From Catajapyx aquilonaris (lineage: Eukaryota): 64,000 bases of DNA. The notes under the pieces are model-generated. The model saw only the letters and a list, made by a program, of their open reading frames with translations. It did no database searches and was not told the origin of the DNA. The stretch spans positions 1-64,000 of the forward strand of contig KZ538058.1 in assembly GCA_000934665.2 (NCBI GenBank), given 5' to 3'. Each line of letters begins with the position of its first letter. Position 1 is the first letter of the stretch. The position numbers and the translations under genes are program-made. Below are positions 792 through 22,684 of this stretch, piece by piece.

Positions 792-1970
792 ATGGCTGAG
801 GAGGTACAAGTCACTCGCACTCACGCCTTGAGCAGTATTAATGAGAGTTGCTTTATATTGCAGAGTATGGATCGGTTCTCTAATTTACCGGAGGAGCTCA
901 AATTGAAGATCTTTTCATACCTGACTCCGTACGAGTTGCTGGCCAGAGCTGCTCCTGTGTGTGTGGCCTGGCATGAAGCCACACGCAATCCTCACTTGTG
1001 GAAGGCCGTCAAGATATATGGAAGGAGGAACGCTGAGATTGCGCTTGAAGCCGTCAGGTGGATGACTCTTCTGAAGCGTCTGCACCTGGAAAAAGTAAGC
1101 AGAGGAGCTGATGACATTCTGGATGCTGTTACCACACATTTAGAGTCGCTGTCGCTGTGCCTTGTCATTATTCATCGGGGCCAAACACTTGCGAGGTTGG
1201 CTGCCAAATGTGATAAATTGAGAGAAGTTGATTTCACTTATGTCAAGTACAGAAATATTCATCCGCTCGATGCTTTTGCGGAGTGCGAGAAACTCAGCAA
1301 GATGAGCCTGAGTCTATTCCACAAACCCTCGGCTTTGAATAAGCCTCATGCATATCCTAGTCTGGAAGAAATTATGTATGATCCGGAAGGGCCTCAAGAA
1401 GTTGAGATGCAGTATCTGCTTAAAAACGCAGTGAAGCTGCGGTCGCTGACTACCTGGTGGCTGAAGCTACCCGAGTCATTTGCACGTGTGGGAAGATGCA
1501 GTCTCGTAGAGGAGCTGCATTTATACTGTGCATTTGACATGACTGATTCCTGCCTCCTAGATAGCATTGGGCGGCTCCGATCACTGCGTGAATTGTCGCT
1601 TGTGCAAGCGGATGGTCTCAGCCGCAAGGCCCTGAGAAGGTTCTTTAGCACACCTGACGTGGTGGGAGGCATCAAGAGGCTTAATCTCACCCTCACACCT
1701 AACGTAGATGATGACTGTTTGGCCGCCATTTACAAGCATTGCAGATCTCTAACTCATTTTGACATTGCTCTTTGTCACAAGGTCACGCCTCAGGGGATTT
1801 TGGACGTGGTGAGAAACTGCCCAGGTCTCCAGGTACTGAACACAACATGCTCCGAACTCGTTGATCAGCATGTGCTTGATATTAATCCGAATGTGAATGT
1901 TCACCCTGAACCTGTACCCAAATTCAGACTTTCCATCAACATCAGTCTCATGTACTGGCCAAAAAGTTAA
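792..1970 (+). CDS. F-box/leucine-rich-repeat (FBXL-type) protein; probable exons 792-803 and 864-1970 (372 aa spliced, 392 aa unspliced)
   Basis: F-box motif FSNLPEELKLKIFSYLTPYELLARAAPVCVAWHEATRNPHLW, followed by cysteine-containing LRRs (e.g. CRSLTHFDIALCHKVTPQGILDVVRNCPGLQVLN). Candidate 60-nt intron 804-863 (GAG|gtacaa...tttatattgcag). AATAAA at 2039-2044. Confidence 0.85.
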   Translation: MAEEVQVTRTHALSSINESCFILQSMDRFSNLPEELKLKIFSYLTPYELLARAAPVCVAWHEATRNPHLWKAVKIYGRRNAEIALEAVRWMTLLKRLHLEKVSRGADDILDAVTTHLESLSLCLVIIHRGQTLARLAAKCDKLREVDFTYVKYRNIHPLDAFAECEKLSKMSLSLFHKPSALNKPHAYPSLEEIMYDPEGPQEVEMQYLLKNAVKLRSLTTWWLKLPESFARVGRCSLVEELHLYCAFDMTDSCLLDSIGRLRSLRELSLVQADGLSRKALRRFFSTPDVVGGIKRLNLTLTPNVDDDCLAAIYKHCRSLTHFDIALCHKVTPQGILDVVRNCPGLQVLNTTCSELVDQHVLDINPNVNVHPEPVPKFRLSINISLMYWPKS

Positions 1971-2733: not shown

Positions 2734-2779
2734 ACATATATGGCTGTCATCAACAGACTGCGACTCGTCAGAAGGTCAG
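2734..2779 (+). other. Candidate upstream METTL2 exon with ATG at 2740 and tandem donors (GT at 2775 and 2780)
   Basis: Acceptor ctccctatacag ends at 2733. Donors are AG|GTCAGG and CAG|GTATGG. Downstream acceptor tgctcttccag ends at 3044. An upstream donor TG|GTAAGT at 2303 could supply a first exon. Confidence 0.55.
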
Positions 2780-3075
2780 GTATGGTACTTGTTTATTTTT
2801 GCTTCATATTAGACCAACATTATCGCAATGAGATGAAATGCCACTCATTTCCATGATAATATCATATTGCCGCCAAGATTTGAACATTTGCTTCTGATCC
2901 CACCCCACAGATGGCAGGACCTGTACATAACAACTCTGCTTTGAAATAGCAGTGATTTTAACGTGAGCCAATAAACAGCTACGAGTAACGGCTACACATG
3001 TGACTGAATATATATCTGTGCATGTGGAAACTGTGCTCTTCCAGGCTTCTCCTCCTCCCTGGAAACCGCAGGCTG

Positions 3076-5418
3076 ATGGCCATGGCTTCCTCATCATCAT
3101 CATCATCATCATCATCTGACCCACCGGCCACCAAGGACAAGAAGCCGCAGTTTGGGACCAGGTTCCTCACCGACCCTAAGAATGTCTTCCAGCACAATGC
3201 ATGGTGCTGTGCAGCATCATTTGGACTGTTGTATAGGTTGCTCTTAATGATCTGAATTTGCAGGGACAACGTGGCATGGGATGATGCACAGGAGCAGGCC
3301 GCACGTGAGAAGGTGTCGGAGAACTCATCCCAGTTTGCGTCGGAAGAGCAGCAGGCCACTTACGAGCAGGATGCGGAGAAGCATTGGGATGCGTTCTACT
3401 CGGTGCACCAGAACCGGTTCTTTAAAGATCGACACTGGCTTTTCACTGAGTTTCCAGAGCTGGCTCCAAGCAGCAGGAACGCCTGCAGCAATGGGGTCTC
3501 CCAGAAAGAGTCGTACCCTGGGGAGGGTGCCACGTTGCGGATCCTGGAGGTCGGCTGTGGCGCCGGGAACACCGTGTTCCCTATCTTGCAGACCAATAAC
3601 GACGGAGGGCTCTTTGTGTACTGTTGTGACTTCTCCAAGGCAGCCGTAGACATTGTCAAGGAGTACCCAGAGTATGATCCGCACAGGTGTTGCGCTTTTG
3701 TGTGTGACGTCACTGAAGAGGACTGGGCGGCCCCATTCCCAGCAGGGAGCCTGGACATCATCATACTCATATTCGTACTTTCAGCAATTCATCCAGACAA
3801 GTATGAGTCGAAATCTAATGGTCACATTGGGGGCTGAATATTTTCAAGCATGTTTTCAAAGGACTGCAGAGCGTAAAATTTACGTAGGCGTAGGAGCTCA
3901 GTGAGACATACTGGGAAAAATGAATGACTAAAAGAGGCTATCACTCGAGTGGTCATGATGATGTGTGCTGTAAAGTCAGCCATAATAGGAAGTGAGCAGG
4001 ATTCATGCCTACATCATCAATTACCAGTGATGTGACCCCCCAACGGATTGCAGGTTAACATGGCTTATCAAAAAGGCTTCAGACGTAGGGTCAGCGATAG
4101 TAAAACTGTTCCTTCACGTTGATAAGTTGTGTAGTTATTTCTCAGAGAACATGGGAATGCTAGTAATCATAATGCGCTATGATAACCAGTCATTCCATTG
4201 TGGTTTCCAGCATAATTGATTCAATACCTGATCTCTTATTGTAGTCATTGGCTACAGTCTAAGAAATGCATTTCTGATCTGCTTTCAGGGAGGCCACCCT
4301 CCTAATTCGTAATTACTGCATACATTGTCCTAACAAAAACAAGCAACTGACAGAAGCAATTGGGGGTACACTGTAGCCTCGCCCTGTTTGTAACAGATGC
4401 ATCCGTTTGAAGGCCAACTAGTCCTGTGCAGAAGGTGGTTCCCACTAATTTCCACTAATTACATGGGTATTAAACTGTCGTCTATCAAAATATCCCTTCA
4501 TTGTGTTTCGTGTGCATATCGTTAATCTTGTAGGGAGTAGGTCGTTTAGGTGGACAAGCAAGTGCCTCCAAACGGAAGGGATGTCCACTACCAACTTCAC
4601 CTTAGACTAATTTAATGCACTTTTTTCCTCCCTTGCATCCCCTCACATCAGATGCCAAGGAAAATGGACCCTAAAAATTAGATATACTATAATTGCCTTC
4701 CAAAATAAGAAACACCAGTCAATTACTTTTGAAATCGAGCATGAAACCTGTGTATTGAGGAATTACTCTGTCCTCCAAAAATGCCTCTTACTGAACAGGT
4801 TTCCGTTATATGCTGACAAAAATCTGTTGAAAATCATCCGCCAAGACCTACCAAAAGTCATGTAAGAGGTCAGGTCCATTTTAGACAGGTTTTACTGTAT
4901 TGTAGAACAAAAAGTACCTCAGATATGTATCATACACTCCTGAGGTGAGATAGGCTGCCTTTATTTAAGTTAATGCTGCAAACATTAGCTGTTTTTTGAC
5001 ATATGCATTGCAATAACACTTGCACTTTCATTACAGAATGGCCCATGTTCTGAGGAAGGTGGCCTGGTACTTGAAACCAGGTGGTAAGGTTGTGTTCCGT
5101 GACTACGGTCGCTATGACATGGCACAGCTTCGATTCAAGAAGGGCCGGTGCTTGTCAGAGAATTTCTACGCCAGAGGAGATGGAACAAGGGTCTACTTCT
5201 TCACCAAAGGTGATTTTACCAGAGTGTGACATGAATATATGTCATAAATCTAAATATGTTTTTGGAAACTTCCAGAAGAGGTCTCTCAGCTGTTTCAAGC
5301 AGCCGGTCTGATAGAGGACCAGAACCTGGTGGACCGACGCTTGCAAGTTAATCGCGGAAAGAAGCTGACCATGTACCGTGTATGGATACAAGCCAAGTAC
5401 CACAAACCCTTAAAGTGA
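3076..5418 (+). CDS. METTL2: tRNA N3-methylcytidine (m3C32) methyltransferase, METTL2 family; exons 3076-3203, 3264-3800, 5037-5209, 5276-5418 (326 aa)
   Basis: Spliced protein contains [40 protein letters not shown] motif [48 protein letters not shown] and [23 protein letters not shown]. All introns are GT-AG with matching phases (981 nt total). AATAAA at 5539-5544. Confidence 0.93.
3091..3117 (+). repeat. (TCA)8-TCT microsatellite encoding poly-Ser at the METTL2 N-terminus
   Basis: Direct reading; in frame with ATG 3076. Confidence 0.9.
4740..4897. mobile_element. Degenerate pogo/Tigger-like MITE in the long METTL2 intron
   Basis: Right end TTAGACAGGTTTTACTG+TA (reverse complement TA-CAGTAAAACCTGTCTAA). 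Left end CATGAAACCTGTGTA is a decayed inverted copy. Similar size and terminus to the MITE at 15245. Confidence 0.5.

Positions 5419-7089: not shown

Positions 7090-11074
<3,985 letters not shown>

Positions 11075-14889: not shown

Positions 14890-22684
<7,795 letters not shown>

What the first reader, a model, noticed from the sequence alone, without database searches (positions are those of the whole stretch)
2734..3078. Tandem 5' splice sites may switch METTL2 between mitochondrial and cytosolic forms
Seen: exon 2734-2774/2779 has an ATG at 2740 and two donors 5 nt apart. Donor 2775 (AG|GTCAGG) spliced to acceptor 3044 gives an in-frame 22-aa extension, [29 protein letters not shown]. It has 6 Arg, no acidic residues, is Leu-rich and ends in RRL, like a mitochondrial presequence. 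Donor 2780 (CAG|GTATGG) shifts frame into a 24-codon uORF whose TGA (3074-3076) overlaps the A of the main ATG (TGATG), suited to reinitiation of a presequence-free protein. Known: vertebrates split m3C32 writing between cytosolic METTL2/METTL6 and mitochondrial METTL8, whose targeting depends on alternative splicing. Inference: one METTL2-type gene here serves both compartments through a 5-nt donor shift.
Basis: partly seen in the sequence, partly recalled or inferred. Interest (0 to 1): 0.8.

Follow-up and report, generated by a model that had tools for sequence, protein, structure and literature searches.

The report
METTL2 gene with possible mitochondrial leader
An arthropod gene for a tRNA-methylating enzyme (METTL2 type) has, just upstream of its normal start, sequence that could add a short mitochondrial import tag; relatives in many invertebrates have such tags, but whether this gene uses the proposed splice switch is unproven.

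Summary
The gene is a METTL2-type m3C32 tRNA methyltransferase: 326 aa in 4 coding exons, 3076-5418. It sits in an arthropod set on a tree, with no close relative in the databases.

The 2740->2775/3045 leader is the only one of 51 in-frame upstream options with a usable donor. Its charge, amphipathicity and TOM20-like motif match annotated leaders of relatives. A leader this good arises by chance in 1-3% of resampled upstream regions and in 6-7 of 114 real tiles.

The strongest support is comparative. 27 of 110 alignable homologues carry a basic, acid-poor leader. In Macrobrachium and Asterias the leader and leaderless forms are isoforms with identical bodies. METTL8 is reported as chordate/vertebrate-only (PMC8662637, PMC8980813).

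The splice switch itself is unproven. No transcript data or related genome could be reached. Donor 2780 (out of frame) looks stronger. An in-frame ATG at 3022 and a CCAAT/TATA pair near 3009 offer rival routes.

Verdict: observation confirmed, interpretation partly supported.

The parts
2740..2774 (+). Candidate 5' exon segment from ATG 2740 to donor 1. It encodes the first 11 2/3 codons of the proposed leader (4 Arg, no acidic residue). Where the exon starts is unknown (acceptor-like AG at 2732-2733, or a transcription start upstream).
   Evidence: Sequence. It is the only one of 51 in-frame options with a donor score >=3. ATG context is T at -3 and G at +4, which is weak.
2775..2783 (+). Tandem donor-like sites: GT at 2775-2776 (AAG|GTCAGG, in frame with the main ORF) and GT at 2780-2781 (CAG|GTATGG, shifts the frame).
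   Evidence: Matrix scores 3.18 and 4.39; the gene's own donors score -1.97, 0.91 and 4.51. U1-consensus matches.
2775..3044 (+). Proposed intron (270 or 265 nt). Contains AATAAA/CCAAT at 2968-2975, TATATA at 3009 and an in-frame ATG at 3022.
3022..3075 (+). Open frame directly upstream of the main ATG. From ATG 3022 it reads MWKLCSSRLLLLPGNRRL (stop TGA at 3001-3003 upstream). The last 10 codons (3046-3075) are shared with the spliced leader.
   Evidence: An equally good contiguous leader occurs at 35 of 2381 ATGs in the window. Features are weaker than the spliced leader: hydrophobic moment 0.38, no TOM20-like motif.
3043..3044 (+).
   Evidence: Pyrimidine fraction 0.55 at -20..-3, similar to the gene's real acceptors (0.55-0.65).
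3070..3071 (+). Second acceptor-like AG, 27 nt downstream and in the same frame, behind the CTTCTCCTCCTCCCT tract. With it the leader would be 13 aa, and the uORF would still end at the same TGA.
   Evidence: pyrimidine fraction 0.70, the highest of the six acceptors scored; candidate c.
3074..3084 (+). TGA of the uORF overlapping main ATG 3076 (TGATG), followed by a second in-frame ATG at 3082 in a GCCATGG context.
3076..3203 (+). Coding exon 1 of the leaderless form: Ser run, then the conserved [22 protein letters not shown] block.
   Evidence: The decapod leader-exon profile hits only this ORF (E 1.2e-6).
3264..3800 (+). Coding exon 2: the methyltransferase core, including EVGCGAGN.
   Evidence: Pfam Methyltransf_12/25/11. 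958 homologues; the best named ones are METTL2. PDB METTL6 at E 5e-35.
5037..5209 (+). Coding exon 3.
   Evidence: Splice enumeration against the homologue pattern.
5276..5418 (+). Last coding exon, including the stop codon.

Best explanation
The locus is a single METTL2-type tRNA m3C32 methyltransferase gene of an arthropod. It most likely makes two protein forms that differ only at the N-terminus.

The leaderless form starts at ATG 3076 or 3082 and would work on cytosolic tRNAs. A minor form would carry a short Arg/Leu-rich, acid-free leader that acts as a mitochondrial presequence, so the same enzyme could also methylate mitochondrial tRNAs in an animal that has no METTL8.

Shown: the gene's family, the sequence features, their moderate departure from chance, and the existence of leader and leaderless isoforms in relatives.

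Inferred: that the exon is transcribed, that donor 2775 is used, that the leader imports the protein, and that mitochondrial tRNAs are substrates. The leaderless form could come from any of three sources: donor 2780 (uORF mRNA), leaky scanning past the weak ATG 2740, or a proximal start near 3040.
For: Family:
- Pfam methyltransferase domains.
- 958 homologues, the best named ones METTL2.
- PDB METTL6 at E 5e-35.
- The conserved N-terminal block is present.

Leader candidate:
- It is the only one of 51 in-frame options with a usable donor.
- Chance is 1.1-3.2% (Markov resampling) and 6-7 of 114 real tiles.
- Features are net +6, no acidic residue, maximum hydrophobic moment 0.68 and one TOM20-like motif. 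For 35 annotated leaders the medians are net +4, 0.66 and 1. For 33 acidic N-termini they are net -2, 0.39 and 0.

Room for a promoter: the upstream F-box gene has AATAAA at 2039 followed by a U/GU-rich tract, so about 1 kb is left for the METTL2 promoter and 5' exon.

Relatives:
- 27 of 110 anchor-bearing homologues meet a leader rule.
- Macrobrachium X1/X2 are identical at 337 of 337 positions after the anchor, and Asterias X1/X2 at 387 of 387, so one gene gives both N-termini.
- Leaders occur in malacostracans, in a Logan transcript (P0066) that groups with thrips, and in oysters, gastropods, a leech, Owenia, amphioxus and a hemichordate.

Literature:
- METTL8 was found only in Chordata (PMC8662637 passage).
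- METTL8 arose within vertebrates (PMC8980813 passage).
- Invertebrates have two homologues, vertebrates three (PMC4986895 passage).
- The human METTL8 MTS is 22 aa and isoform-specific (PMC9023283 passages).
Against: - No transcript evidence of any kind, and no related genome to test conservation.
- Donor 2780, which breaks the frame, scores higher (4.39 against 3.18) and pairs better with U1. Donor 2775 has C at +3, which I recall to be rare.
- ATG 2740 has a weak context. Short upstream ATGs at 2687 and 2708 would precede it if transcription starts further upstream.
- Part of the acid-free, stop-free frame (3046-3060) is simply a pyrimidine tract, which cannot encode stops or Asp/Glu.
- The chance estimates use thresholds set after the fact, and 5-6% of real tiles do as well.
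- Many arthropod models (wasps, sawflies, a termite, a tick, horseshoe crabs, a millipede) show no leader.
- Leaders in database models could in some cases be over-extended ORFs.
- No validated targeting predictor was available. The features come from my own script.
Confidence: 0.38

Rival explanations
1. There is no leader. The gene makes only the leaderless enzyme from ATG 3076/3082. The upstream ATG, the donors and the open frame are chance features of a promoter or 5'UTR region. Transcription starts near 3040, downstream of a CCAAT (2968) and TATATA (3009) pair, at the pyrimidine tract.
For: - CCAAT at 2968 and TATATA at 3009 are spaced about as expected for a start near 3040.
- 51 in-frame joins exist by chance.
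- 6-7 of 114 real tiles give an equally good leader.
- 6 of 197 good GT sites have a partner 5 nt away.
- The pyrimidine tract explains part of the open, acid-free frame.
- Many arthropod METTL2 models have no leader.
Against: - Two separate presequence-like readings lie directly upstream of the start. The contiguous one is matched at only 35 of 2381 ATGs. The spliced one is matched in 1-3% of resamples.
- Leaders are widespread in relatives, including pancrustaceans.
- TATA[AT]A and CCAAT matches are weak evidence in AT-rich DNA (2 and 3 matches in 1130 nt).
Confidence: 0.32
2. A leader exists but is made without splicing. Transcripts starting upstream of 3022 translate from ATG 3022 (MWKLCSSRLLLLPGNRRL, then the normal start). 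Leaky scanning past this very weak ATG, or a downstream start site, gives the leaderless form. This is the classic alternative-AUG route of dual-targeted tRNA enzymes.
For: - The frame is open from 3004, with an in-frame ATG at 3022.
- The leader has 4 K/R and no acidic residue, a combination matched at 1.5% of ATGs.
- Leader and internal Met lie in one exon-level ORF in several relatives (P0123, P0127-P0131 against P0124/P0126).
- Oysters have the same leader-then-internal-Met layout in the protein.
- The ATG context is T at -3 and T at +4, which would allow leaky scanning.
Against: - Presequence features are weaker than for the spliced leader: hydrophobic moment 0.38, at the low end of annotated leaders, and no TOM20-like motif.
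- An ATG-TGA mini-ORF at 2998 lies just upstream.
- If TATATA 3009 is the promoter, ATG 3022 is not transcribed.
- No conservation data.
Confidence: 0.12
3. One reading: the choice between the two donors 5 nt apart is itself the regulated switch. Donor 2775 gives the presequence form. Donor 2780 gives an mRNA whose 23-codon uORF ends at TGATG, and the cytosolic form is made by reinitiation. This is a sub-case of the best explanation.
For: - Both donors are consensus-like.
- The frame arithmetic is right for acceptor 3044 and also for 3071.
- TGA overlaps the main ATG, and a strong second ATG follows 6 nt later.
Against: - Nothing shows that either donor is used.
- The 5-nt tandem follows naturally from the donor consensus: 6 of 197 good sites have one.
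- Simpler routes to the leaderless form exist (leaky scanning, a proximal promoter).
- Reinitiation efficiency at an overlapping stop-start is unknown here.
Confidence: 0.14

Closest known systems
Human METTL8 (mitochondrial m3C32 writer; Iso1 with a 22-aa MTS, other isoforms nucleolar)
   Same: Same enzyme family. The mitochondrial form depends on an isoform-specific N-terminal presequence of about 22 aa produced by alternative mRNA processing (PMC9023283 passages; PMC8752778 and PMC8980813 passages).
   Different: METTL8 is a separate paralogue reported only in chordates/vertebrates. Here a single METTL2-type gene would supply both forms. No METTL8 sequence was in my tree, so orthology was not tested. 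Import and activity are untested here.
METTL2-type gene models of other invertebrates with alternative N-termini (Macrobrachium nipponense X1/X2, Asterias amurensis X1/X2, crab/lobster/krill leader forms, oyster and gastropod extended forms)
   Same: One gene, identical bodies, and either an acidic short N-terminus or a basic acid-poor leader. The oyster and thrips-clade layout, with the leader directly in front of an internal Met, matches the window's layout.
   Different: Decapods and krill swap a whole first coding exon that carries its own RRPQGGGR..W block, and the window has no such exon. The leaders share no sequence similarity with the window's. Their localisation is also untested, and I found no paper describing them.
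Dual-targeted tRNA enzymes made from one gene by alternative starts or 5' exons (yeast Mod5, Trm1 and Cca1; human KARS) - recalled, not checked here
   Same: The same logic: a longer form with a presequence goes to mitochondria, and a shorter form from a downstream AUG or alternative 5' exon stays in the cytosol or nucleus.
   Different: Those cases are experimentally established; this one is a sequence-based prediction. A 5-nt tandem-donor frame switch coupled to a uORF is not, as far as I recall, the mechanism in any of them.
Human METTL2A/B and METTL6 (cytosolic m3C32 writers)
   Same: Conserved N-terminal block and methyltransferase core.
   Different: Human METTL2A/B and METTL6 were predicted to have under 3% probability of an MTS (PMC8980813 passage). 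The window gene may have one.

Membership tests
Trm140 / METTL2 / METTL6 / METTL8 m3C32 tRNA methyltransferases | Class I SAM-dependent methyltransferase core with the glycine-rich SAM motif | tested here: met
   Pfam Methyltransf_12 (E 3.7e-11), Methyltransf_25 and Methyltransf_11 on exon 3264-3800. EVGCGAGN is seen. PDB METTL6 chains match at E 5e-35.
Trm140 / METTL2 / METTL6 / METTL8 m3C32 tRNA methyltransferases | Family-specific N-terminal block (K/R-R-P-Q-F-G-x-R-x-L ... V-F-x-H-N-A-W followed by D-N-V-x-W) | tested here: met
   Present at 3136-3203/3264 onward. It aligns with 110 of 120 homologues through the W anchor.
METTL2 subfamily (as opposed to METTL6) | Closest named relatives are METTL2; tree placement is among METTL2 sequences | tested here: met
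   The named hits among the 120 best are almost all METTL2 or METTL2-like; the rest are unnamed, 'hypothetical' or fused models. The window row sits inside the arthropod METTL2 set, SH-aLRT 96 (63 of the 121 available rows were used). No METTL6 or METTL8 rows were in the tree.
METTL2 subfamily (as opposed to METTL6) | m3C32 activity on tRNA-Thr/Arg | not testable with these tools
   Needs biochemistry or modification mapping.
METTL8 (mitochondrial m3C32 writer) | Orthology to chordate METTL8 | not tested
   No protein named METTL8 was among the 120 listed hits, so none was in the tree. The literature places METTL8 in chordates/vertebrates only.
METTL8 (mitochondrial m3C32 writer) | Cleavable N-terminal mitochondrial targeting sequence | tested here: inconclusive
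   My own feature script puts the spliced leader inside the range of annotated leaders. No validated predictor and no experiment.
Alternative-first-exon METTL2 of decapods and krill | A second first coding exon with its own RRPQGGGRxLKDW...NNW block | tested here: not met
   A profile of 9 such exons run against the six-frame window hits only the known exon 3004-3252 (E 1.2e-6); the next hit is at E 0.16.
Tandem alternative 5' splice sites | Two consensus-like GT donors a few nucleotides apart | tested here: met
   2775 and 2780, scores 3.18 and 4.39. U1 matches.
Tandem alternative 5' splice sites | Both donors used in vivo | not testable with these tools
   No RNA data were reachable and no genome is held.
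uORF with overlapping stop-start (termination-reinitiation) | The uORF stop overlaps the main AUG | tested here: met
   TGATG at 3074-3078, in the frame produced by donor 2780. Function is untestable here.

The most novel reading that the evidence does not exclude
Animals without METTL8 supply mitochondria with the m3C32 writer from their single METTL2-type gene through an alternative presequence-bearing N-terminus. This dual-targeted state would be ancestral, and vertebrate METTL8 would be the duplicated, subfunctionalised mitochondrial half. In this arthropod the choice would be made by a 5-nt tandem-donor shift that converts the same short exon from a presequence into a uORF.
Probability: 0.14. 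Interest if true: 0.7.

Novelty: new variant of a known kind. Interest (0 to 1): 0.5.

Why it matters
m3C32 in mitochondrial tRNA-Thr and tRNA-Ser(UCN) is written in mammals by METTL8, a paralogue reported only from chordates/vertebrates. Which enzyme, if any, does this in other animals is not addressed in the papers I could search.

Gene models from at least ten invertebrate lineages show METTL2-type genes with alternative basic leaders. This window may be a further case with a compact, testable layout.

If real, it would give a simple origin story for METTL8: duplication of a dual-targeted ancestor. It would also predict m3C32 in invertebrate mitochondrial tRNAs, and it would add a neat example of one exon serving either as a presequence or as a uORF.

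If the leader is not expressed, the locus is an ordinary METTL2 gene.

Tried and rejected
- Own genome: none is held, so I could not search for a second METTL2/8 paralogue or read the mitochondrial tRNA genes.
- Close relatives to test conservation of the exon and the tandem donor: none found. The best METTL2 identity is 68%. The first-exon ORF query returned 11 proteins that match only through the conserved block. The neighbouring F-box ORF has only distant partial matches (7 hits, 25-38% identity).
- Decapod-type alternative leader exon in the window: not present.
- Repeat or transposon origin of the upstream region: no direct or inverted repeats of 40 nt or more in the window.
- The idea that 2734-2779 lies in the neighbour's 3'UTR: unlikely, because a canonical poly(A) signal with a U/GU-rich tract sits at 2039-2062. 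A second AATAAA at 2970 leaves a long-3'UTR isoform possible.
- The bacterial promoter/terminator scan does not apply to a eukaryote and was ignored.
- Earlier scan notes: nothing on this genome, these words or this sequence.
- Literature: four searches found no paper on an invertebrate METTL2 mitochondrial isoform. The library lacks most subscription journals, and no supplements were read.
- No validated targeting predictor and no MaxEnt splice model were available. I used my own feature script and a recalled donor matrix.
Full report
**1. The observation**

- ATG at 2740.
- GT donors at 2775 (AAG|GTCAGG) and 2780 (CAG|GTATGG).
- Acceptor AG at 3043-3044.
- TGA at 3074-3076 overlapping ATG 3076.

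In-script translation confirms both readings. Donor 2775 joined to 3045 gives an in-frame 22-residue extension with 6 Arg, 7 Leu and no acidic residue. Donor 2780 gives a 23-codon upstream ORF that ends at the overlapping TGA.

- An in-frame ATG at 3022 inside the proposed intron. Its frame is open from the stop at 3001-3003 and reads MWKLCSSRLLLLPGNRRL before the main start.
- A second acceptor-like AG at 3070-3071, 27 nt downstream and so in the same frame. It follows the best pyrimidine tract of any acceptor in the gene.
- A second in-frame ATG at 3082 in a GCCATGG context.
- A CCAAT (2968) / TATATA (3009) pair that would place a proximal transcription start near 3040.

**2. The gene and the organism**

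The coding exons are 3076-3203, 3264-3800, 5037-5209 and 5276-5418, giving 326 aa.
- The large exon carries Pfam methyltransferase domains.
- It has 958 homologues at E <= 0.001. The named ones among the best 120 are almost all METTL2 or METTL2-like.
- It matches PDB METTL6 chains at E 5e-35.
- The family's N-terminal block ([22 protein letters not shown], then DNV.W) is present.

No genome is held for the window. On a quick maximum-likelihood tree the window protein falls in the 29-row arthropod set (SH-aLRT 96). The tree had 63 rows: 62 of the 120 hits plus the window, and fusions, partials and most vertebrate duplicates were left out. The window protein sits with the pancrustaceans on a long branch of its own; best identity is 68%, to a thrips.

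Neither the first-exon ORF nor the neighbouring F-box ORF has a close relative in the protein database. "Arthropod" therefore holds, but nothing nearer can be said, and conservation of the upstream exon cannot be tested.

**3. Is the leader more than chance?**

In-frame joining alone is not. 51 ATG..GT combinations between 1971 and 3044 join 3045 without a stop. Only 2740>2775 has a usable donor (3.18; next best 1.42), and it also has the most Arg/Lys. For comparison, the gene's own donors score -1.97, 0.91 and 4.51.

| Test | Control | Result |
|---|---|---|
| Spliced leader at least as good | 3000 Markov resamples of the upstream region | 1.1-3.2% |
| Spliced leader at least as good | 114 real non-overlapping tiles of the window | 6-7 tiles |
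| Contiguous ATG-3022 leader | All 2381 ATGs in the window | 35 (1.5%) |

These numbers are optimistic. The thresholds were set after seeing the data, the donor matrix is recalled and approximate, and the two readings share ten codons that partly lie in a pyrimidine tract, which cannot encode stops or acidic residues.

The 5-nt tandem follows from the donor consensus. 6 of 197 good GT sites in the window have a partner exactly 5 nt downstream.

**4. Does it look like a presequence?**

No validated predictor was available. In my own feature script:

| N-terminus | Net charge | Acidic residues | Max hydrophobic moment | TOM20-like motifs |
|---|---|---|---|---|
| Spliced leader (2740-2774 + 3045) | +6 | 0 | 0.68 | 1 |
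| Contiguous ATG-3022 leader | +4 | 0 | 0.38 | 0 |
| Leaderless form (ATG 3076) | 0 | 2 | 0.12 | 0 |
| 35 annotated leaders of relatives (medians) | +4 | 0 | 0.66 | 1 |
| 33 annotated acidic N-termini (medians) | -2 | 4 | 0.39 | 0 |

The spliced leader falls inside the range of the annotated leaders. The ATG-3022 leader is weaker.

**5. Comparative evidence**

Among the 120 best homologues, 110 have the W anchor. 27 of those meet a simple leader rule: Met start, anchor at residue 50 or later, at most one acidic residue and net charge of at least +2 in the first 22 residues. By eye the leaders occur in:
- crabs, lobster, prawn and krill;
- a Logan transcript (P0066) that groups with thrips;
- oysters and gastropods;
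- a leech and Owenia;
- amphioxus and a hemichordate;
- many frogs and a salamander.

A sea star also has an alternative basic N-terminus (P0068), seen by eye; it falls short of the leader rule because its anchor lies before residue 50.

In two species the leader and leaderless forms are annotated isoforms with identical bodies: Macrobrachium nipponense X1/X2 (337 of 337 positions after the anchor) and Asterias amurensis X1/X2 (387 of 387).

Three layouts exist:
- Decapods and krill swap a whole first coding exon that has its own RRPQGGGR..W block. A profile of that exon finds nothing in the window except the known exon.
- Oysters and the thrips-clade transcript have the leader directly in front of an internal Met, as proposed here.
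- Several exon-level ORFs, gastropod-like by their conserved block, have the leader and the internal Met in one uninterrupted ORF, as in the ATG-3022 reading.

Caveats: many arthropod models show no leader, some database leaders could be over-extended ORFs, and none has been localised.

**6. Literature**

I read passages only, except where stated.
- Invertebrates examined have two homologues and vertebrates three (PMC4986895).
- Human METTL8-Iso1 has an experimentally defined 22-residue MTS, and other splice isoforms are nucleolar (PMC9023283).
- Human METTL2A/B and METTL6 had under 3% predicted MTS probability (PMC8980813).
- m3C32 in mitochondrial tRNA-Thr/Ser(UCN) is described for mammals (PMC8752778).
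- Four full-text searches found no paper on an invertebrate METTL2 mitochondrial isoform. The library lacks most subscription journals, and no supplements were read.

**7. Mechanism and odds**

The upstream F-box gene has a canonical poly(A) signal at 2039 followed by a U/GU-rich tract. About 1 kb is therefore free for the METTL2 promoter and 5' exon.

My estimates:
- About 0.6 that this locus makes some presequence-bearing form.
- About 0.38 that it does so through exon ...2774 joined to 3045 or 3072. This is the best explanation.
- About 0.12 that it does so through ATG 3022 without splicing.
- About 0.32 that there is no leader and transcription starts near 3040.

The out-of-frame donor 2780 looks stronger: 6 contiguous U1-consensus matches against 4. 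If the exon is real, most transcripts would carry the uORF and the leader form would be minor, which is plausible for a mitochondrial isoform. Leaky scanning past the weak ATG 2740 (T at -3) or a proximal promoter would give the leaderless form equally well.

**8. Verdict**

The window itself remains an untested prediction.

The wider pattern deserves a proper study. Single METTL2-type genes with alternative basic leaders occur across animals that lack METTL8. That pattern looks real in the database models, and I could not find it in print.

Novelty: a new variant of a known kind, namely dual targeting of a tRNA-modifying enzyme through alternative 5' ends.

Noticed in passing
window 792-1970 (+), poly(A) signal 2039: Intronless 392-aa F-box/LRR ORF (Pfam F-box-like, E 6.6e-13) with a canonical AATAAA followed by a U/GU-rich tract. 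It has no close homologue in 5.8 billion proteins: 7 hits, 25-38% identity over partial lengths, from plants, a kinetoplastid and a nematode.
   Followed up: partly
window 9437-11074 (+): Alpha-tubulin ORF that reads through a short in-frame insert after ...DLEPTVV, probably a small intron. It lies about 4 kb downstream of METTL2 on the same strand.
   Followed up: no
window 14890-15327, 19896-20291, 21863-22303 (-): Exon-like ORFs that resemble Tousled-like kinase (coiled-coil and basic N-terminal regions; the resemblance is recalled, not searched). They are separated by long introns. As I recall, human METTL2A also neighbours TLK2, so this may be old microsynteny.
   Followed up: no
homologues P0030, P0032, P0040, P0041, P0049, P0062, P0070, P0083, P0091, P0097, P0100, P0106 (frogs), P0069 (salamander): Amphibian METTL2A models carry a basic N-terminal extension of about 45-80 aa in front of an internal Met. 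It includes a motif conserved across frog families (..ADW.F.R.F..). Whether this is a real mitochondrial METTL2A isoform, and whether these species keep METTL8, was not checked.
   Followed up: no
homologues P0034, P0047 (oysters), P0001 (Lutzomyia): Oyster models named '2-hydroxyacyl-CoA lyase 1-like' (975 and 1203 aa) contain a full METTL2 body and are probably fused neighbouring genes. The 567-aa sand-fly model scores as if it holds two METTL2 units.
   Followed up: no
window 2968-3015 (+): CCAAT (2968, overlapping an AATAAA at 2970) and TATATA (3009) lie 75 and 35 nt upstream of the 3044 acceptor and pyrimidine tract. This is a possible proximal core promoter that would make the leaderless mRNA without any splicing.
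   Followed up: partly
window 29932 and 34884: Two single N bases in an otherwise complete window. The 22-48 kb region is rich in low-complexity Pro/Gly-type ORFs on both strands and has no long exact repeats.
   Followed up: no
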